64,000 bases of DNA. Source: Chthoniobacter flavus (lineage in GTDB: Bacteria; Verrucomicrobiota; Verrucomicrobiia; Chthoniobacterales; JACTMZ01). The position numbers and the translations under genes are program-made. The notes under the pieces were generated by a model. It did no database searches. It saw only the letters and a list, made by a program, of their open reading frames with translations, and was not told the origin of the DNA. This document shows positions 43,688-53,142 of the stretch, in pieces. Position 1 is the stretch's first letter, and each line of letters opens with the position of its first letter. Location of the stretch: the NCBI GenBank assembly GCA_945878135.1, contig CAMDUL010000003.1, positions 5,972-69,971 of the forward strand, in the 5' to 3' direction.

Positions 43688-45070
43688 ATGCCCCTCCTCA
43701 TCAAAAACGCTGATATTATAAACGCCGACACCCGTTACACCGCCGACATCCTTTGCGAAGGAGAGACGATCACCCGCATCGACCAAAACATCACGCCGCC
43801 CGCCGGAGCCGAAGTGATTGATGCCGCAGGCAAACACGTCTTTCCGGGTTTCATCGACCCCCACACCCACATCTACCTGCCCTTTATGGGCACCTATTCG
43901 AAAGACAACTACGAGACGGGAACTAAAGCAGCGCTCGTCGGCGGCACTACAACCATTTTCGAGATGGTCTGTCCCTCGCGCGACATGCCGCCGGCCGAAG
44001 GCTTCGCCACCTGGCAGGCGCAGGCCGAAGGCAAGGCCTGCTGCGACTACACCTTCCATATGGGAGTGACCCGCTTTGACGCCGAGTCCGCCAAACAGCT
44101 CCGCGAAATCGTCAAGCAAGGTGTGGGCAGCTTCAAAGTCTTCCTTGCCTACAAAGGCGCGTTCGGCGTCGACGACACGGAACTCTGGGAGACGCTGAAG
44201 CTGGCCAAGGAACTGGGTGTTATCGTCACCGCGCACTGCGAAAACGAAACACTTGTGGCACAGTTGCAAAAGCAACTGCTCGCCGCTGGCCGCACCGGAC
44301 CCGACGCGCACCACGACAGCCGTCCACCTTACGTCGAAGCCGAGGGTGTGCACCATTTGATGTCCTTCGCCGCCCTGACCGGCACGCACACCTACATCGT
44401 CCATCTCAGCTGCGTCGAAGCACTGCGTGAAGCCATCGAAGCCCGCGAACGCGGGGTGACAGTCTTTGTCGAAACCCTCATCCAATACCTCGTCCTCGAC
44501 AAATCCTACGCGGAGAAGCCGAACTTCGAAGGCGCCAAGTTCGTCATGTCCCCGCCCCTGCGCGACATCTCGAATCAGCAGATTCTCTGGGACGGACTGG
44601 CCAGCGGACTGGTCAACACGGTCGGCACCGACCACGCCCCGTTCGACTTCAAAGACCAGAAACCGATGGGCAAAGACGACTTCACCAAGATCCCCAACGG
44701 CATCCCGTCCATAGAGGACCGCATCAATCTCCTCTACACCCACGGCGTGAAAAAAGGCCGCCTTACTCTCCAGCAACTGGTCGCCGTGGCCAGCACCAAC
44801 GCCGCGAAAATCTTCGACCTCTACCCGCGCAAAGGTGTCATACAACCCGGCGCCGACGCCGACCTCGTCGTCTACGATCCCTCCTACCGCGGCAACCTTT
44901 CGGTTAAGACCCAGACCCAGAACGTCGACTACAACGCCTTCGAAGGCTGGGAAATCGAAGGCCGCCCGTCCATCGTCACAGTCCGGGGCGAAGTCGCGGT
45001 GCGCGACGGAAAGTTCGTCGGCACGGTCGGCCGCGGACGTTTCCTTCAGCGGAAGCCTTCCCATTTTTGA
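43688..45070 (+). CDS. hydA: Dihydropyrimidinase
   Basis: PGFIDPHTH, carbamylated Lys in SFKVFLAY, HCEN, VHLS and TDHAPF. Confidence 0.92.
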   Translation: MPLLIKNADIINADTRYTADILCEGETITRIDQNITPPAGAEVIDAAGKHVFPGFIDPHTHIYLPFMGTYSKDNYETGTKAALVGGTTTIFEMVCPSRDMPPAEGFATWQAQAEGKACCDYTFHMGVTRFDAESAKQLREIVKQGVGSFKVFLAYKGAFGVDDTELWETLKLAKELGVIVTAHCENETLVAQLQKQLLAAGRTGPDAHHDSRPPYVEAEGVHHLMSFAALTGTHTYIVHLSCVEALREAIEARERGVTVFVETLIQYLVLDKSYAEKPNFEGAKFVMSPPLRDISNQQILWDGLASGLVNTVGTDHAPFDFKDQKPMGKDDFTKIPNGIPSIEDRINLLYTHGVKKGRLTLQQLVAVASTNAAKIFDLYPRKGVIQPGADADLVVYDPSYRGNLSVKTQTQNVDYNAFEGWEIEGRPSIVTVRGEVAVRDGKFVGTVGRGRFLQRKPSHF

Positions 45071-45100
45071 CTTGGCACGCTTGCCCTGTTTGTAGCTGTC

Positions 45101-46558
45101 ATGCATCCCGCACCCGACCAACACGACCCGCGACTCTGGAATGCGGACCTGGCCCCCGTGCCGCAGGACCGCCGCACCTGGACCACTTGGAACGTCGCCG
45201 CTCTCTGGGTCGGCATGGCCGTGTGCATCACAACCTACACCTTGGCCAGCAGCCTCATCGAACAAGGCATGAACTGGTGGCAGGCCACGCTGACCGTCTT
45301 TCTCGGCAATCTCATCGTCTTGGTTCCCATGACGCTCAACGCGCACCCGGGCACGGCCTACGGGATCCCGTTCCCCGTGCTGCTCCGTGCGTCATTCGGC
45401 ACGTTTGGTTCGAACATCCCGGCACTGATGCGCGGGCTGGTCGCCTGCGGATGGTTCGGCATCCAGACATGGGTCGGCGGAGCGGCGATCTACGCCACGG
45501 GCGCCGTCGTCTTCGGCTTCGACCCCGCAGCCCGGCAGCCCCTGCCGATTCTCGGAATTTCATCCGGTGAATTCCTCTGCTTCATGATTTTCTGGGCGAT
45601 CAATGTCTACTTCATCGTTCGCGGCATGGAGTCGATCAAATGGATGGAAACCCTCAGCGCGCCATTCCTTCTCCTTGTCGGCGTGGCGCTCGTCTGGTGG
45701 GCTTGGGACGCAGCAGACGGCTTCGGTCCGATCTTCACCCAACCCGCCAAACTCGACACCGCGGCGAAATTCTGGCCGGTCTTCGGCGTTGGACTCACCG
45801 CCATGGTCGGCTACTGGGCCACGCTTTCGCTCAACATCCCCGACTTCTCCCGCTACGCCCGCTCGCAGCGCGATCAGGTCGTGGGGCAAGCTCTCGGCCT
45901 GCCCGCGACGATGACATTTTACGCTTTCATCGGCATCCTCGTGACCAGTGCGACGATCGTCATTTTCGGCTCGGCCATCTGGGATCCGGTGCAGGTCATC
46001 GCCAAATTCGGCAACCCGTTGGTCTCGGCCTTGGCGCTGGTCACCCTTGCCGTGGCCACTCTCTCGACCAACATCGCGGCCAATGTCGTCTCGCCGGCCA
46101 ATGACTTTTCCAACCTCGCCCCGCAACGGATCAGCTTCCGCACCGGCGGACTGATCACCGCTTTCCTCGGCATCCTCATGATGCCATGGAAACTTTACCA
46201 GGACCCGAGCGGCTACATTTTCACCTGGCTCATCGGTTACAGCGCCCTGCTTGGACCGATCGCCGGCATCATGATCGCGGACTACTTCGTCTGGCGACGC
46301 AAGAAGCTCGATGCCGCCCAGCTTTACCAGCGCCACGGGATCTACCGCTACACCGGCGGATTCAGCCTTGTCGGCTTTGGTGTCTTGATCGCCGCGGTTT
46401 TGCCGAATCTCCCCGGTTTTCTCGTCACGATCAAGATCCTCCCGGCCGATGCTTTCCCTGCCTGGTTGGTTGCCAGTTACCATTACGCGTGGTTTGTCGG
46501 GTTTGCTCTCGGCTTTCTTCTGTATAGTCTGATCCGCCCTCTCTTCCCAAACCGATGA
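45101..46558 (+). CDS. NCS1-family nucleobase:cation symporter
   Basis: [34 protein letters not shown] and [12 protein letters not shown]. Confidence 0.93.
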
Positions 46559-47898
46559 AAACACCCGCGCTCCCCCCGACCGAGCACCAACCCCGGCCTT
46601 ACACCGGTCCGTCCCCCGGGGACGTTCTCGCCCTGCGCAAGCAGTTCATGAACCCGGGTATTTTCCTCTACTACAAAAAGCCCCTCATGGTTGTCGAAGG
46701 CCGCATGCAATACGTGTGGGACGAGAAGGGCAAACGCTACCTCGACGGACTCGGCGGTATCGTCACGGTCAGCGTCGGTCACTGCCACCCGCACGTCATA
46801 GCGGCCGGCAACAAACAAAACGAACTCTACCAGCACTCGACGACGATTTATCTTCACCCGAATGTCTCGCAATACGCCGAGAAGCTCGCCTCGAAAATGC
46901 CCGGCGACCTCAAGGCCTGCTATTTCGTCAATTCCGGCTCCGAAGCCAACGACCTGGCCATCCTCATGGCCCGCGCCTACACGGGAAACTTCGACATCAT
47001 CGCCCTGCGCAACGCCTACCACGGCGGCAACCACGCCACCATGGGTGTCACCGCCCACGGCACATGGAAATACAACATCCCGCAGGCCTTCGGCGTGCAC
47101 CACGCGCTCGCCCCTTATCCTTACCGCGGCATCTGGGGCTATGACGATCCGCAGGCCGGACCCAACTATGCCAACGATGTGAAGGAAATCATCGATTACG
47201 CCAGTTCGGGACGCATCGCCGGCTTCATCGCCGAATCGATCCAAGGCGTCGGCGGCTTCGTCGAATTCCCGGCCGACTATTTGAAAAACGTCTACGGCTA
47301 CGTCCGCGCCGCGGGCGGCGTCTGCATCGCGGACGAGGTCCAGACCGGCTTCGGACGCACCGGCACGCATTTCTGGGGCTTCGAAACGCAGGGTGTCATT
47401 CCCGACATCGTCACCATGGCCAAAGGCATCGGCAACGGCTGTCCCCTCGCCGCGGTTGTCACCACCCATGAAATCGCCCAGTCCCTCGTCGGCAAGGTCC
47501 ACTTCAACACCTTCGGCGGAAACCCCGTGGTCAGCGCCATGGGCAAAGCCGTGCTCGAAGTCATCGAGAAAGAGAACCTGCAGGAGAACTCGCACAAAAT
47601 GGGTGAATACATCCTGGCCGGACTGAACAAACTGAAGGAGAAGCACAAAATCATCGGCGACGTCCGCGGCAAAGGCCTCATGCTCGGTATCGAGATGGTC
47701 AAGGACCGCAAAACCAAGGAGCCTGCCACCGCGGAATGCGCCCAAGTGCTCGAAACGGCCCGCGATCTCGGACTCCTCCTCGGCAAAGGCGGATTGCGCG
47801 GACAAGTCATCCGTTTCGCCCCACCGATGTGCATCACCAAGGCCGATGCCGACTTCCTCCTCGAAGTCCTCGACGAAAGCTTCAGCCGGCTGGGCTAA
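46555..47898 (+). CDS. Class III aminotransferase (AGXT2/PYD4-like beta-alanine/beta-aminoisobutyrate:pyruvate aminotransferase)
   Basis: [18 protein letters not shown] and MAKGIGNG (PLP Lys); pyrimidine-catabolism context. Confidence 0.85.
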
Positions 47899-47911
47899 TA
47901 CCCGTCTCTCC

Positions 47912-48715
47912 ATGAGCGACGTGCTAGAGGAGTTGCTCGAAGCCCGCCGCACCGGACGTCCCTGCGTCTTGGCAACCGTCGCCGCGACCAAGGGATCCGT
48001 CCCCCGCCATCCCGGCGCCAAAATGATCGTCTACGCCGATGGATCCATCTCCGGAACGGTCGGCGGCGGCAAATTCGAATCCCTCGTCATCGCCGAAGCA
48101 CTCGGCTGCCTCGACCGCAACGAGCCCCTGCTCAAGACGTGGCCGCTGCGCGAAGACCAACCGGACTCTTTCGGCGCCATCTGCGGCGGCGAAGTGACCA
48201 TCCTGATCGAACCTCAGTCTCCCGCCCACCGCCTGCTCATCGTCGGCGGCGGGCACTGCGCCCAAGCCATCGCCAAACTCGCCGCCGAATGCGGCTTCCA
48301 CGTCACCGCCCTCGAGGACCGCGAAGATATCCTCGGACAATGCCAAGCCGCCCACCAGCGGCTGACCGATCCGGCCCCGGCTTACATCTCCTCGCGCGCC
48401 TGGAAAAAAAGCGATGCCATGGTCATTGTCAGCCGTCATTACGATATCGACCGCGAAGCCCTCGCCGCCGCGCTGCAGCACGGAGCCCCCGGTTACGTCG
48501 GCATGATCGGCAGCCGACGTAAAGTCCTCCAGGTCTACGACCGGCTCAAGGCCGACGGCTTCACCGCCGGACAACTCGCCACCGTCCACGCCCCCACCGG
48601 CCTCGACATCGGCGCGGATTCCCCCGCGGAAATCGCCGTGAGCGTCGTGGCGGAAATCCTCGCCGTCCTCCGCAACAAGTCAGGAAACTCCCTGAAACTC
48701 ACGGCGAATCTATAG
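47912..48715 (+). CDS. XdhC/CoxI-family Mo-hydroxylase maturation factor
   Basis: GSVPRHPGAKM, GTVGGG, CGG, GMIGSRRK and PTGLDIGADSPAEIAVS. Confidence 0.9.
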   Translation: MSDVLEELLEARRTGRPCVLATVAATKGSVPRHPGAKMIVYADGSISGTVGGGKFESLVIAEALGCLDRNEPLLKTWPLREDQPDSFGAICGGEVTILIEPQSPAHRLLIVGGGHCAQAIAKLAAECGFHVTALEDREDILGQCQAAHQRLTDPAPAYISSRAWKKSDAMVIVSRHYDIDREALAAALQHGAPGYVGMIGSRRKVLQVYDRLKADGFTAGQLATVHAPTGLDIGADSPAEIAVSVVAEILAVLRNKSGNSLKLTANL

Positions 48716-51679
48716 TCAGCCCTTTGCCTCCAAGTCGGCGAGCAGTCGCGCGGCGGCCTCGGGAATAACCGTGCCGGGGCCGAAAATCTCGGCCGCGCCG
48801 TTCTGGTGGAGGAATTCGTAGTCTTGGTGCGGGATGACCCCCCCGATCACGACCAGAATATCCGGACGACCGAGTTTCTTCAGCTCGGCGACCAACTGCG
48901 GCAGGAGCGTTTTGTGTCCGGCCGCCAGCGAACTGAAGCCGACAATGTGCACGTCGTTTTCCACCGCCTGCTTGGCTGTTTCCTCGGGTGTCTGGAAAAG
49001 CGGACCGATATCGACGTCGAACCCGAGGTCGGCGAAGGCGGTGGAAACCACCTTCGCCCCGCGGTCGTGTCCGTCCTGACCGATCTTGGCCACGAGCATG
49101 CGGGGACGGCGTCCGTGACGTTTCTCGAAGTCCGCGCTCATGCGCCGCACCTCGGCGATCTGTTTGTTTTCGCCGAACTCGCGGCCGTAAACACCGGAAA
49201 TGGATCGGACCACGGCCATGTGGCGACCATACACTTTTTCCATCGCGTCGGAAATCTCCCCGAGTGTGGCGCGGGCGCGGGCGGCCTCCACGGCAAGGGC
49301 CAGGAGGTTCCCCCGGCCGCTCTCCGCTGCCTTGGTCATGGCCCCGAGGGCCGCGGTCACCTTGGCATTGTCGCGTTCGGCGCGGAGCTTCTTCAACTGC
49401 GCGACCTGCTCTTCGCGGACCGCGGTGTTGTCGACCTCGAGAATGTCGAGCGGAGCTTCTTCGGACAAACGGTATTTGTTCACCCCGACGATGGTCTCGT
49501 GTCCGGAATCAATGCGGGCTTGGCGCCGCGCCGCGGCTTCCTCGATGCGCATCTTGGGCAATCCAGTGTTGATCGCCTTGGCCATGCCGCCGAGTTTCTC
49601 CACCTCGACGAGATGCGACCACGCGCGTTCCATCAGGTCGCGGGTCAGGCTTTCCACGTAATACGACCCGCCCCACGGGTCGACCGTGCGGCAGATGCCG
49701 GTCTCTTTCTGCAGGAAGATCTGCGTGTTGCGCGCGATGGCGGCGGAGAAATCGGTGGGCAGGGCGATGGCCTCGTCGAGCGAATTGGTGTGCAGGGACT
49801 GCGTCCCGCCGAAGACCGCAGCCATGGCCTCCACGCACGTGCGCACCACGTTGTTGTAGGGGTCCTGCTCGGTCAGGCTCCAACCGGAGGTCTGCGAGTG
49901 GGTGCGGAGGGCCAGCGATTTCGGATCCTTCGCCCCGAGACCGCTCATCAGCTTGGCCCATAGCACGCGCGCGGCCCGCATCTTGGCGATCTCCATGAAA
50001 AGGTTTTTCCCCTGGGCCCAGAAGAACGAGATGCGCGGGGCAAAGGTGTCGATCGGGATGCCGGCCGCCACGCCCGTGCGCACGTATTCGACCCCGTCGG
50101 CCAGCGTGTAGCCGATTTCCAGATCGGCCGGCGCACCGGCCTCGTGCATATGGTAACCGGAAACGCTGATGCTGTTGAACTTCGGCATCATCTTCGAGGT
50201 GTAGGCGAAAATGTCGGCCACGATGCGCATCGACGCCTCGGGCGGGTAAATGTAGGTGTTCCGCACCATGTATTCCTTGAGGATGTCGTTCTGGATCGTG
50301 CCGGTCAGCTTTTCCGGAGGCACCCCCTGCTCCTCGGCGGCCGCGATGTAGAAGGCCATGATCGGAATGACGGCGCCGTTCATCGTCATGGAGACCGACA
50401 TTTTGTCGAGCGGGATGCCATCGAAGAGCATCTTCATGTCGAGGACGGAGTCGACAGCCACCCCCGCCTTGCCCACGTCGCCGACCACCCGCGGGTGGTC
50501 GGAGTCGTATCCGCGATGGGTGGCGAGGTCGAAGGCCACGCTCAGTCCCATCTGGCCCGCGGCGAGGTTGCGGCGATAGAAAGCATTGCTCTCGCGGGCG
50601 GTGGAAAAACCCGCGTATTGGCGGATGGTCCACGGACGGACGACATACATCGTGGGATAGGGTCCGCGCAGAAACGGGGCGATACCGGCGGTGAAACCGA
50701 GTTGCGGGCAATCCGTGCGATCGGACGGCCCGTAGAACGGTTTGACCGCGATATGTTCCATCGTTTCCCCGGACGGCGCCCCGCCGCGCGCCGCAGCAGG
50801 GCCGGCAACCGGTTCAGGCGCCCCGGCCGCATCCCCCAGTCCGGACCGCGCTTTTTCCCAGGCAGCTTCGCCGATCTCTTTGCTCAAGGATTCGACAAAC
50901 CACGAACCCCCGCCCGCATCAGCCACGCCGGCGAGAAGGCATTCCTCCCGGAAGATGCGTTGCGTGTTGACGGCCAAACGTCGCGAAAACTCGGTCTTTC
51001 CGCCGTCGAACGGAAGCACGGTCAAGCTGTCGCAACCGCCGAGCACCGCCCCGCAGGCGGCCACCGTGTAGCGAAGAATGTTGGTGTGCGGATCCTCCCC
51101 CTCACGAACGCAGGGCGGAGTGGTCGCGTGGATGGTCATCCGCGCCGAGGCTGGCGATCCGCCCAGCGCGGAGACGAGACGCGACCAACCGTGCCGCGCG
51201 GCGCGGAGCTTCGCCATGATGACAAAAAACTCGCCGGCCGCGGCGAAGGTGAAACGGATTCGTCCGGCCGCCTCGTCAATCGTATGACCGGCGGCTTGGA
51301 GCGAGTGCAGGGCCTCGAGACCGCGGGTCCAAGCGAAAGCCACCTCTGCCGCGGCGCCATCGGCGGCGTGCACGGAAGCATCGACCCGCACTCCCCCCTC
51401 GGGCAAAGGAGGTTCCCCCTCCGCTATGGTGATCCAGTCGGCCAGCGCTTTGCCGCCGCGCAGGAAGGGAAAGACGCCGGGATCGGCCTCGCCGCCGGAC
51501 AAGATCGCAGAGTTTTCGCCGGTGTAGATCGGCCCGACTGCCAGACCATCCTGCGTCTCGGAGTCGAGACCGGCCAGGGGCTTGCCCTTCAATGCGGCTT
51601 CGGCCGCGATACGCCAATCGGCGAGGGACGAGGGCGGAAAATCGGACAGATCAAGTTTCTCCGCAAAGAGCTGGCTCAT
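48716..51679 (-). CDS. scpA: Methylmalonyl-CoA mutase with fused degenerate small-subunit (MutA-like) N-terminal module
   Basis: From about aa 300: [17 protein letters not shown] (Tyr specificity residue), [19 protein letters not shown] (B12 DxHxxG); aa 1-290 resemble a shortened MutA. Confidence 0.9.
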
Positions 51680-53142
51680 CCGCCCACCTCCTCGACTTCC
51701 ACCGTGTGCTCTTTTCCTTCGATGTGCATGAGGTATTTTTTCGGACGCGAACCGGACTTCGGGGCAGGCGGGGCGGCGGGGGCAGCGGCCGGCGCAGCAG
51801 CCGGCTTTTCACCGCGCAAAAGCTTCTCGGTCTCAACCGGAAACATGGCGAATAGCACCGCCGTCTCATCGTCGTCCGGCAGATCCTTCTCCCGGAGTTT
51901 GCCGCGCAAGGCGGGCAGCCCCGGCACGAGCAGATCGGCCGGACGCACCGTGACAGCCTTTTTGCCGCTTTGCTTTTCGACCAGCGCGAGAAGGTCACGG
52001 TCCACCGGCCCGGGTGTCTTCCCGTATTTCCCGAGGACCACGTCCTGCGCCGGCTGCGAAATCATCTTCCAGCGTCCGAATTTCACGTTGAGCATGGCCT
52101 GCGTCCCGACGATCTGGGAAGTCGGCGTGACCAGCGGGATGTAACCGAGCGCGGCGCGCACGACAGGCATTTCCTTGAGAACTTCGTCATAGCGCTCGGC
52201 CATTCCCTGCTCCTTGAGCTGGTTGCGGAAGTTGCTCAGCATGCCGCCCGGCACCTGGTAGGTCAGGATGTCGACATCGACCCGCTCGTTGGCCGGACTG
52301 GTGAAGGCCTTCAAGTCCGCATAAACCTTCTCGAAATGGGCCCGCAGGCGCGCGAGGCGTTCGCGATCGTAATCCGGACAGCGCGGATGCCCCGCAAGCA
52401 GGGCCATCATGCGCAAGGTGTCCGGTTGCGACGTGCCGTTGGCGAAAGGGACAACCGACGTTTCGACCACATCAACCCCGGCCTCGACCGCGGCAAGATA
52501 CGAGGAGGCCGCCAGGCCCGCGGTGTCATGGCTGTGCAGGATGACGGGGACACTGACGCGCTTTTTCAGCGCGGAGACCAGATCGTAGGCGATCTTCGGC
52601 GTGATGAGACCGGCCATGTCCTTGATGCTGACCGACTGGCAACCGAGGTCGACGAGGTCTTCGCCGAATTCGACAAAGGCCTCGACGGTGTGGACCGGAC
52701 TGATCGTGTAGCAAATCTCTCCCCGCGCGTGCTTGCCGGAGGCCAGCGTGGTGCGGATGGCCGTCTCCAGGTTGCGCGGATCGTTGAGCGCGTCGAAGAT
52801 GCGCAGCACATCCATCCCGCGGCCGGCCGTGCAACGGATGAAGGTCTCGACGACATCATCGGGAAAACTCGTGTATTGCACGATGTTCTGACCCCGGAGC
52901 AGCATGCCGTGCGGCGTTTCCGGGGCGCCTTTTTTCAGTGCGGTGATGCGCTCGAAAGGATTTTCGCCGAGGTAGCGCAGGCAGGAATCGATGGTGGCCC
53001 CGCCCCACGTCTCGAGTTGGTAAAAGCCCAAGGCGTCAAGATCCGCCAAAGCGGGGAGCATCTGCGCAGTCCGCATGCGCGTGGCGGCGAGGGACTGGTG
53101 TCCGTCGCGGAGCACCGTGTTGGTGAACTCGACGCGCTTCAT
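51676..53142 (-). CDS. Pyruvate/oxaloacetate carboxyltransferase (transcarboxylase 5S / OadA-like) lacking a biotinyl domain
   Basis: [38 protein letters not shown] and [11 protein letters not shown]; no AMKM motif. Confidence 0.85.

What the first reader, a model, noticed from the sequence alone, without database searches (positions are those of the whole stretch)
48716..51679. Single-chain methylmalonyl-CoA mutase: shrunken MutA-like module fused to MutB
Seen in sequence: one uninterrupted 987-aa ORF. Residues 1-290 carry small-subunit-like motifs ([30 protein letters not shown]...[25 protein letters not shown]...[10 protein letters not shown]) but are about half the length of a normal MutA. 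An Ala/Pro/Gly linker joins them to a complete catalytic subunit with RQYAGF and DxHxxG. Established knowledge: MCMs are MutB homodimers or MutA/MutB heterodimers. Inference: a covalent pseudo-heterodimer with a minimised structural subunit, which is an unusual architecture. meaB and epimerase genes are not in the window.
Basis: partly seen in the sequence, partly recalled or inferred. Interest (0 to 1): 0.65.

Follow-up and report, generated by a model that had tools for sequence, protein, structure and literature searches.

The report
Single-chain mutase with shrunken partner subunit

Summary
The 987-codon ORF (48716-51679, minus strand) is real. Residues 306-987 are a complete MutB with all catalytic and B12-binding residues. 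Residues 1-286 derive from MutA. They keep only the N-terminal arm and five of the eight barrel strands (β1, β5-β8), and lack MutA's C-terminal Rossmann-like domain.

It is not an assembly artefact. About 40 protein clusters of 985-989 aa and seven Chthoniobacterales (Verrucomicrobiota) genome loci carry the same frame. Independent metagenome and metatranscriptome contigs cross the junction without indels.

The N module is under purifying selection (dN/dS 0.07-0.25). AlphaFold models it confidently (pTM 0.91).

One metagenome contig (L081) keeps the likely ancestral state: 5S carboxyltransferase, a stand-alone short MutA (478 aa) and a stand-alone MutB (88% identical). One in-frame deletion would therefore explain the fusion, and the linker looks like MutB's own N-terminal tail.

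Short stand-alone MutA proteins are widespread in Acidobacteriota and other phyla. MutA-MutB fusions arose about ten times in my sample.

The architecture is thus common in databases, though I found no paper describing it. Oligomeric state and MeaB dependence are untested.

Verdict: a new variant of a known enzyme, of moderate interest.

The parts
48716..51679 (-). Whole fused mutase gene, 987 codons plus stop
   Evidence: The same frame is conserved in L001-L007.
51434..51679 (-). Residues 1-82: MutA-type N-terminal arm ([32 protein letters not shown])
   Evidence: It aligns to MutA residues ~36-96 and to human MMUT chain positions 31-85. pLDDT is 89-94 in the full-length model but only 40-59 for residues 51-80 when the module is folded alone.
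50822..51433 (-). Residues 83-286: partial TIM barrel that keeps strands β1 and β5-β8 plus the post-barrel helix. About 110-140 residues (β2-β4 and their helices) are deleted relative to full-length MutA.
   Evidence: Pfam PF01642 positions 215-386 only. MutA 215-419 aligned. Model strands at 83-85, 97-100, 141-146, 182-187 and 218-221. Short forms have 22-38 residues where full forms have 122-167. Best fold matches are MutA chains 7req_B and 1req_D, TMq 0.75.
50765..50821 (-). Residues 287-305: Ala/Pro/Gly linker, probably derived from MutB's own N-terminal tail
   Evidence: Sequence read. It aligns weakly (low-complexity sequence) to residues ~12-30 of the stand-alone MutB of L081. It is the least constrained segment, dN/dS 0.2-0.4.
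49520..50764 (-). Residues 306-720: MutB arm and complete catalytic (β/α)8 substrate barrel
   Evidence: PF01642 over its full length. The equivalents of Tyr89, Gln197, Arg207, Tyr243 and His244 are all present in the alignment to 1req_A. TMt 0.92-0.94 to MCM alpha chains.
49115..49519 (-). Residues 721-855: MutB interdomain linker
   Evidence: Aligned to 1req_A throughout.
48719..49114 (-). Residues 856-987: cobalamin-binding Rossmann domain with DGHDRG (DxHxxG)
   Evidence: PF02310 and TIGR00640. The His610 equivalent is conserved.
51676..53142 (-). Upstream gene in the same operon: 5S/OadA-type carboxyltransferase with no biotinyl domain. Its stop overlaps the mutase start (ATGA).
   Evidence: The same pairing is seen in L007, and in the unfused L081, where the 5S gene precedes the stand-alone mutA.

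Best explanation
The gene encodes a functional adenosylcobalamin-dependent methylmalonyl-CoA mutase. It interconverts (R)-methylmalonyl-CoA and succinyl-CoA, here probably in propionyl-CoA assimilation alongside the co-transcribed 5S carboxyltransferase. All chemistry is done by the C-terminal MutB part (residues 306-987).

The N-terminal 286 residues are what remains of the inactive partner subunit MutA after two reductions. The first was loss of barrel strands β2-β4. That loss is also seen in stand-alone 'short MutA' proteins, so it pre-dates the fusion. The second was one in-frame deletion running from about MutA codon 300 to about MutB codon 10. It removed MutA's linker and Rossmann-like domain and joined the two genes, leaving MutB's own N-terminal tail as the tether.

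What survives is the N-terminal arm plus the β1/β5-β8 face of the barrel. I infer that these are the parts that contact the catalytic subunit. On this reading the module works as a built-in structural partner, an intramolecular 'heterodimer in one chain', that stabilises the catalytic barrel and binds neither CoA ester nor B12.

Shown: the architecture, its conservation, its origin, purifying selection and intact catalytic residues. Inferred: the intramolecular docking, the structural role and the enzyme activity.
For: - MutB identity: NF006944 scores 1384.6 bits against a cut-off of 876. The module is 66-67% identical to P. shermanii MutB and human MMUT, with TMt 0.92-0.94 and rmsd 1.6-1.9 Å. 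The Tyr89, Gln197, Arg207, Tyr243, His244 and His610 equivalents are all present.
- MutA origin of the N module: it scores higher against the MutA model than the MutB model (172 against 114 bits). It is 42-48% identical to MutA proteins and 33-36% to MutB. The best fold hits are MutA chains.
- Not an artefact.
- The module is selected: dN/dS is 0.07-0.25, against 0.03-0.08 for the catalytic barrel and B12 domain (up to 0.17 in MutB's interdomain linker) and 0.2-0.4 for the fusion linker.
- Ancestral-like unfused state: L081 carries the 5S gene (70% identical), a short MutA of 478 aa (59%) and a MutB (88%), with overlapping genes in the same order. The linker aligns to MutB's N-terminal tail. 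On the tree the fused clade plus P0124 has 100% support.
- Docking: whole-chain pTM is 0.91 with the N module at pLDDT about 90. The arm loses confidence when the module is folded alone.
- Interface: the human MMUT dimer-interface residues P86, Y316, R369 and G426 (PMC4441004) fall in the arm and second half of the barrel, which are the segments retained here. I mapped them through the alignment, using a numbering offset I worked out myself.
Against: - No biochemical or structural data exist for any fused form.
- I could not get model coordinates, so I could not superpose the model on the 1REQ heterodimer. The intramolecular interface rests only on confidence scores.
- A single-chain AlphaFold run cannot tell an intramolecular arrangement from a domain-swapped dimer.
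- MCMs that are MutB homodimers (human) need no MutA at all, so why this lineage needs the remnant is unexplained.
- The genome search tool was shut. I do not know whether a second mutA or mutB, meaB or the epimerase exist elsewhere in this genome.
- The linker-to-MutB-tail alignment is low-complexity and weak.
Confidence: 0.8

Rival explanations
1. The fused chain does not fold on itself. Instead it forms a domain-swapped homodimer, in which the N module of one chain pairs with the catalytic module of the other. The result would resemble an α2β2 assembly, not a monomeric pseudo-heterodimer.
For: The tether of about 20 residues is short and Ala/Pro-rich. A single-chain AlphaFold model cannot exclude swapping. 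Human MMUT and IcmF are dimers.
Against: pTM of 0.91 for the single chain shows that an intramolecular arrangement is sterically feasible. Repeated loss of MutA's C-terminal domain only in fused forms suggests that tethering replaces an assembly function.
Confidence: 0.2
2. The N module is a functionless remnant drifting towards loss after an accidental deletion fused the genes.
For: It evolves two to three times faster than the catalytic part: 68-80% against 87-94% identity, and a higher dN/dS. It retains no ligand-binding residues.
Against: dN/dS of 0.07-0.25 is clear purifying selection. Length and frame are held at 985-989 aa in about 40 clusters. The fold is predicted confidently. Independent lineages converge on a similar module of 250-320 aa and do not lose it.
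Confidence: 0.05
3. The remnant has taken on a new job. It might dock the co-transcribed 5S carboxyltransferase for substrate channelling, or replace or recruit the MeaB/adenosyltransferase cofactor-loading machinery.
For: The 5S gene is translationally coupled to the mutase in the window and in L007; the unfused L081 keeps the same gene order with overlapping genes. No MeaB gene lies within ±6 kb in 0 of 7 fused loci, against 42 of the 73 other loci.
Against: The unfused L081 relative has the same 5S linkage, so the linkage pre-dates the fusion. The inactive subunit is not predicted to contact the MeaB G domain (PMC9974510). MeaB may simply lie elsewhere in the genome, which I could not check.
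Confidence: 0.08
4. A sequencing or assembly error hides a stop codon or frameshift between two separate genes.
For: None found. One related MAG locus, L004, does carry a frameshift later in the gene.
Against: The same frame occurs in 7 genome loci and about 40 protein clusters from different studies. Independent contigs cross the junction with no indels. No remnant of MutA's C-terminal domain or of a mutB start context lies at the junction.
Confidence: 0.01

Closest known systems
Heterodimeric methylmalonyl-CoA mutase MutA/MutB of Propionibacterium shermanii (PDB 1REQ-7REQ) and Mycobacterium tuberculosis (6OXC/6OXD)
   Same: There is one active B12-binding subunit and one inactive homologous partner. 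The C module is 66-67% identical to MutB with all catalytic residues. The N module is closest to the MutA/β chains in sequence and fold.
   Different: The partner is fused to the N-terminus of MutB. It is about 290 aa instead of 616-638 aa. It lacks barrel strands β2-β4 and the whole linker and Rossmann-like domain. The first ~36 residues of MutB are replaced by or used as the tether.
Stand-alone 'short MutA' (about 450-495 aa) encoded next to mutB, and often meaB, in Bryobacteraceae/Solibacteraceae (Acidobacteriota), other Verrucomicrobiae and Anaeromyxobacter. The closest example is P0124 on L081.
   Same: It has the same barrel deletion of about 110-140 residues. P0124 is 59% identical to the N module and sits in the same 5S-mutA-mutB gene order.
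   Different: It is a separate polypeptide that still carries the linker and the C-terminal Rossmann-like domain. To my knowledge this form is also uncharacterised.
Other MutA-MutB fusions in sequence databases, for example Dyadobacter soli 'methylmalonyl-CoA mutase' of 975 aa (P0075), metagenomic proteins of 928-1006 aa, and forms of 1080-1321 aa with a full MutA barrel or a complete MutA
   Same: The order is the same: MutA-like module, linker, complete MutB. Many also have the short module without a Rossmann-like domain.
   Different: Their N modules are only 24-41% identical to this one and lie on separate branches of the MutA tree. These are independent fusions, with about 10 state changes on the tree.
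Human MMUT and other homodimeric MCMs (PDB 2XIQ, 8DYJ)
   Same: The catalytic module has the same fold and 66% identity. The dimer-interface residues map to the regions that the N module retains (PMC4441004).
   Different: Both protomers of the homodimer are active and full length. There is no inactive partner.
IcmF, the fused isobutyryl-CoA mutase (PDB 4XC6)
   Same: It is a naturally fused acyl-CoA mutase.
   Different: In IcmF the fusion partner is the MeaB-like G-protein chaperone, not an inactive mutase subunit. NF045497 scores 303 bits against a cut-off of 1500. The specificity residues here are the MCM type.

Membership tests
Methylmalonyl-CoA mutase catalytic subunit (MutB; NCBIfam NF006944 equivalog) | Whole-protein score above the curated equivalog cut-off | tested here: met
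   1384.6 bits against a cut-off of 876, residues 305-985.
Methylmalonyl-CoA mutase catalytic subunit (MutB; NCBIfam NF006944 equivalog) | MCM-type active-site residues (P. shermanii Tyr89, Gln197, Arg207, Tyr243, His244), as opposed to the Phe/Gln of isobutyryl-CoA mutases | tested here: met
   All are present in the residue-by-residue alignment to 1req_A. The Y89F (5req_A) and H244A (1e1c_A) chains fix the numbering. The roles of these residues are from my own knowledge.
Methylmalonyl-CoA mutase catalytic subunit (MutB; NCBIfam NF006944 equivalog) | C-terminal cobalamin-binding Rossmann domain with DxHxxG | tested here: met
   PF02310 at 860-975, TIGR00640 at 200.6 bits, DGHDRG at 869-874.
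Methylmalonyl-CoA mutase catalytic subunit (MutB; NCBIfam NF006944 equivalog) | Fold of solved MCM α chains | tested here: met
   TMt 0.92-0.94, rmsd 1.6-1.9 Å to 8dyj, 2xiq_A and 4req_A.
Methylmalonyl-CoA mutase catalytic subunit (MutB; NCBIfam NF006944 equivalog) | AdoCbl-dependent methylmalonyl-CoA/succinyl-CoA isomerase activity | not testable with these tools
   Needs an enzyme assay.
Methylmalonyl-CoA mutase small subunit (MutA; TIGR00642 equivalog) | Score above the curated equivalog cut-off (617.25 bits) | tested here: not met
   The N module alone scores 172.1 bits.
Methylmalonyl-CoA mutase small subunit (MutA; TIGR00642 equivalog) | Closest relatives in sequence and in fold are MutA chains, not MutB | tested here: met
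   (7req_B and 1req_D, TMq 0.75).
Methylmalonyl-CoA mutase small subunit (MutA; TIGR00642 equivalog) | Complete (β/α)8 barrel | tested here: not met
   Only β1 and β5-β8 remain. There are 26 residues where full-length MutAs have 122-167.
Methylmalonyl-CoA mutase small subunit (MutA; TIGR00642 equivalog) | C-terminal Rossmann-like domain that does not bind B12 | tested here: not met
   Absent. The module ends at about residue 286 and runs into MutB. The domain is present in the stand-alone relative P0124.
Methylmalonyl-CoA mutase small subunit (MutA; TIGR00642 equivalog) | Separate polypeptide that forms an αβ heterodimer | tested here: not met
   It is fused in frame. The oligomeric state is not testable here.
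IcmF-type fused acyl-CoA mutase (NF045497) | MeaB-like G-protein domain within the chain and a score above cut-off | tested here: not met
   303 bits against a cut-off of 1500. No MeaB domain in Pfam.

The most novel reading that the evidence does not exclude
The N module is a natural open fragment of a TIM barrel, five strands of eight. It folds only by docking within the chain onto the catalytic subunit. That would make the enzyme a true monomeric 'heterodimer in one chain'. The repeated, independent trimming and fusion of MutA would then define the minimal function of the long-unexplained inactive subunit, and might be linked to loss of dependence on a neighbouring MeaB chaperone.
Probability: 0.2. 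Interest if true: 0.6.

Novelty: new variant of a known kind. Interest (0 to 1): 0.4.

Why it matters
The role of the inactive subunit in bacterial heterodimeric methylmalonyl-CoA mutases is poorly defined. This locus and its relatives form a natural deletion series: full MutA, then short MutA lacking β2-β4, then a fused remnant that also lacks the Rossmann-like domain. The series points to the arm and the β5-β8 face as the only indispensable parts. That can be tested directly with truncations and structures.

A single-gene, single-chain MCM would also be a practical part for metabolic engineering of propionate, succinate and methylmalonyl-CoA pathways.

On the annotation side, these proteins are named only 'methylmalonyl-CoA mutase', and the short MutA proteins score below the MutA equivalog cut-off. 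Subunit composition is therefore misread in pathway reconstructions for Verrucomicrobiota, Acidobacteriota and Bacteroidota.

Tried and rejected
- Genome search: the genome search and the fetch from genomes were shut. I could not check this genome or other Chthoniobacterales genomes for meaB, a second mutA or mutB, the epimerase, or the 12S and 1.3S transcarboxylase subunits.
- Representative-library search with the N module: it returned mostly stand-alone MutA and MutB proteins, because clusters are represented at 50% identity. It still yielded the key stand-alone relative P0124.
- Single origin of the barrel deletion: the AU test gave p = 0.043 with 3 changes on the ML tree, and I named the group after seeing the tree. 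I treat this as inconclusive.
- Literature: five full-text searches found no description of a MutA-MutB fusion. Subscription journals are not held. Froese et al. 2010 (PMC2992254) could not be read.
- Rfam scan of the window found only two tRNAs, and no riboswitch near the operon.
- Sequencing-error and decaying-remnant explanations were considered and rejected.
Full report
**Observation.** The window holds one uninterrupted 987-codon ORF on the minus strand, 48716..51679. Pfam and NCBIfam place a complete methylmalonyl-CoA mutase large subunit at residues 305-985. NF006944 scores 1384.6 bits against a cut-off of 876, and the B12-binding domain covers 860-975.

Residues 1-300 scanned alone hit the same barrel family in two pieces and score best against the MutA equivalog. 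TIGR00642 gives 172 bits, which is far below its 617-bit cut-off, while the MutB model gives 114 bits. Against the PDB the best hits are the MutA chains 6oxc_B and 1e1c_B. Query residues 20-76 align to about MutA 36-96, and query 78-277 to MutA 215-419. About 120 barrel residues in the middle of MutA are therefore missing, and so is everything after about MutA residue 420.

**Not an artefact.** A word-indexed protein search restricted to the N module found about 40 clusters of 985-989 aa. They are 68-80% identical over the N module and 87-94% identical over the MutB part. A scan of one genome per species found seven Chthoniobacterales/Verrucomicrobiota loci (L001-L007, 73-94% identity). In all seven the MutA-like region runs in frame into RQYAGF. 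L004 has a later frameshift and L006 is cut by its contig end.

Logan contigs from four independent freshwater metagenomes cross 50500-51100 with substitutions only and no indels. Contigs from lake-water libraries labelled RNA-Seq do the same, including one 2019-nt contig at 94% identity. That is consistent with expression, although DNA carry-over cannot be excluded. GenBank names these proteins simply 'methylmalonyl-CoA mutase [Chthoniobacterales bacterium]'.

**Anatomy.** The catalytic part aligns to P. shermanii MutB from chain position 37 to the end at 66-67% identity. The equivalents of Tyr89, Gln197, Arg207, Tyr243, His244 and His610 are all present. The Y89F and H244A mutant chains fix the numbering. 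The roles of these residues are from my own knowledge.

AlphaFold2 with a 51-sequence alignment gives mean pLDDT 87.8 and pTM 0.91. Foldseek matches the model to MCM α chains at TMt 0.92-0.94 and rmsd 1.6-1.9 Å.

In the model the N module has strands at 83-85, 97-100, 141-146, 182-187 and 218-221. By the internal alignment to the catalytic barrel and to full-length fused MutA modules, these are β1 and β5-β8. Strands β2-β4 and their helices are deleted. Short forms have 22-38 residues where full-length MutAs have 122-167. Folded alone, the N module's best structural matches are again the MutA chains 7req_B and 1req_D (TMq 0.75) and 6oxd_B.

**Is the remnant functional?** Pairwise Nei-Gojobori estimates against five Chthoniobacterales orthologues give dN/dS of 0.07-0.25 for the arm and partial barrel. 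The catalytic barrel and B12 domain give 0.03-0.08 (up to 0.17 in MutB's interdomain linker), and the fusion linker gives 0.2-0.4. The remnant is therefore under purifying selection, though less tightly than the enzyme proper.

In the full-length model the arm (residues 51-80) has pLDDT 89-94. In the isolated-module model it drops to 40-59. This is expected if the arm is ordered only against the catalytic module. From my own knowledge of the 1REQ structure, each subunit's N-terminal arm wraps around its partner.

The human MMUT residues reported at or near the dimer interface are P86, Y316, R369 and G426 (PMC4441004). Through the alignment they map to the arm and the second half of the barrel, which are the two segments retained here. 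The numbering offset is my own count, so this is an inference.

**Origin.** The exhaustive representative search returned P0124, a stand-alone 478-aa protein 59% identical to the N module. It has the same barrel deletion but keeps the linker and a C-terminal Rossmann-like domain without DxHxxG. Its contig, L081, carries three overlapping genes in the same order as the window:
- the end of a 5S carboxyltransferase, 70% identical to the window's;
- the short mutA;
- a separate mutB, 88% identical to the window's C module.

On a maximum-likelihood tree of MutA modules, P0124 is sister to the fused clade with 100% support. The window's N module aligns to P0124 up to about residue 292. Its linker aligns, weakly because both are low-complexity, to residues ~12-30 of the L081 MutB.

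The simplest history is one in-frame deletion from about mutA codon 300 to about mutB codon 10.

**Wider distribution.** Most of the other genome loci (L008-L080) encode stand-alone short MutA proteins of about 450-495 aa. They occur in Bryobacteraceae/Solibacteraceae and other Acidobacteriota, other Verrucomicrobiae and Anaeromyxobacter, typically followed by mutB and meaB. L010 shows short MutA, then a 714-aa MutB, then MeaB.

Other fusions exist with short modules (P0044, P0048, P0052, P0078, P0082, P0091, and the Dyadobacter type P0071, P0075, P0111), with full-barrel modules (P0045, P0069, P0118) and with complete MutA (P0046, P0047). On the tree the fused/unfused state changes about 10 times.

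The barrel deletion changes 3 times on the tree. A single origin is only marginally rejected (AU p = 0.043, group named after seeing the tree), so that question stays open.

Earlier notes of this scan flag comparable fusions in at least six other genomes. One follow-up judged the Bacteroidota version real and common. Those are unverified leads, but they agree with my.

**Context.** The mutase start overlaps the stop of a 5S/OadA-type carboxyltransferase that has no biotinyl domain (ATGA). That pairing is conserved in L007; the unfused L081 keeps the 5S gene just upstream of its separate mutA. No MeaB or 12S carboxyltransferase homologue is in the window. Neither lies within ±6 kb of any of the seven fused loci, whereas 42 and 45 of the 73 other loci have them. 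Whole-genome checks were impossible because the genome tools were shut.

On the other strand, a hydantoinase-type amidohydrolase, a permease, a class-III aminotransferase and XdhC converge on the operon. This fits a role in handling propionyl-CoA and methylmalonyl-CoA from pyrimidine or branched-chain catabolism. That is an inference.

**Explanation and rivals.** The best-supported reading is a working AdoCbl-dependent MCM in which the inactive partner subunit is reduced to its contact-making parts and tethered to the catalytic subunit. Identity, origin, conservation and selection are shown. Intramolecular docking, the structural role and the activity are inferred.

A domain-swapped dimer cannot be excluded. 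A functionless remnant is unlikely given the dN/dS values and the convergent retention. A new docking role, towards the 5S protein or the cofactor-loading machinery, is possible but unsupported. A sequencing error is refuted.

**Known or new.** Heterodimeric MutA/MutB, homodimeric MCM, split archaeal forms and the G-protein fusion IcmF are established (PMC9974510, PMC9403272). I found no paper that describes a MutA-MutB fusion or the short MutA in five full-text searches. The sequences are nevertheless abundant in public databases under a generic name.

I rate this a new variant of a known kind and of moderate interest. The enzyme itself is ordinary. The natural deletion series for the enigmatic inactive subunit is the useful part.

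Noticed in passing
window 51676-53142 (-); L007 4529-6004; L081 2-436: The co-transcribed 5S/OadA-type carboxyltransferase has no biotinyl domain. It ends in an Ala/Pro linker followed by a short conserved tail (…[15 protein letters not shown]; in L081 …IDGEDHAVEVEEVAP). To me this resembles the start of a 1.3S biotin-carrier subunit. No 12S subunit or biotin carrier lies nearby in the window or in L001-L007.
   Followed up: partly
L008-L080, e.g. L010 5959-7398; L081 433-1869: A widespread family of stand-alone 'short MutA' proteins (about 450-495 aa) lacks barrel strands β2-β4 but keeps the Rossmann-like domain. They occur in Acidobacteriota (Bryobacteraceae/Solibacteraceae), other Verrucomicrobiae and Anaeromyxobacter, usually followed by mutB and meaB. 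By length they cover at most about three-quarters of the 620-position MutA equivalog profile, so they probably miss its cut-off (not scanned here). The family seems undescribed.
   Followed up: partly
L004 5980-8930: In this Verrucomicrobiota MAG the fused gene is broken by a frameshift near MutB residue 465. The ORF stops at 780 aa and tblastn continues in another frame. GenBank calls the product 'Methylmalonyl-CoA mutase large subunit'. It is either an assembly error or a pseudogene.
   Followed up: no
L001-L007 versus L008-L080: A MeaB gene lies within ±6 kb in 0 of 7 fused loci but in 42 of the 73 other loci. The 12S carboxyltransferase shows 0 of 7 against 45 of 73. The fused lineage has a different operon layout.
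   Followed up: partly
window 43688-48715 (+): An amidohydrolase (hydantoinase-like), a cytosine/purine-type permease, a class-III aminotransferase and an XdhC-family maturation factor run towards the mutase operon from the other strand. Together they look like a pyrimidine or β-amino-acid degradation cluster that feeds methylmalonate semialdehyde and propionyl-CoA.
   Followed up: no
protein cluster of P0044: The 1006-aa short-module fusion P0044 shares a 90% cluster with a 1160-aa member (P0292). At least one lineage therefore has length variants of the fused protein.
   Followed up: no
window 50764-50775 (-): An in-frame ATG (Met307) preceded by GGGGAAACG sits exactly at the start of the MutB module. 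Internal initiation that also produces a free MutB cannot be excluded from sequence alone.
   Followed up: no
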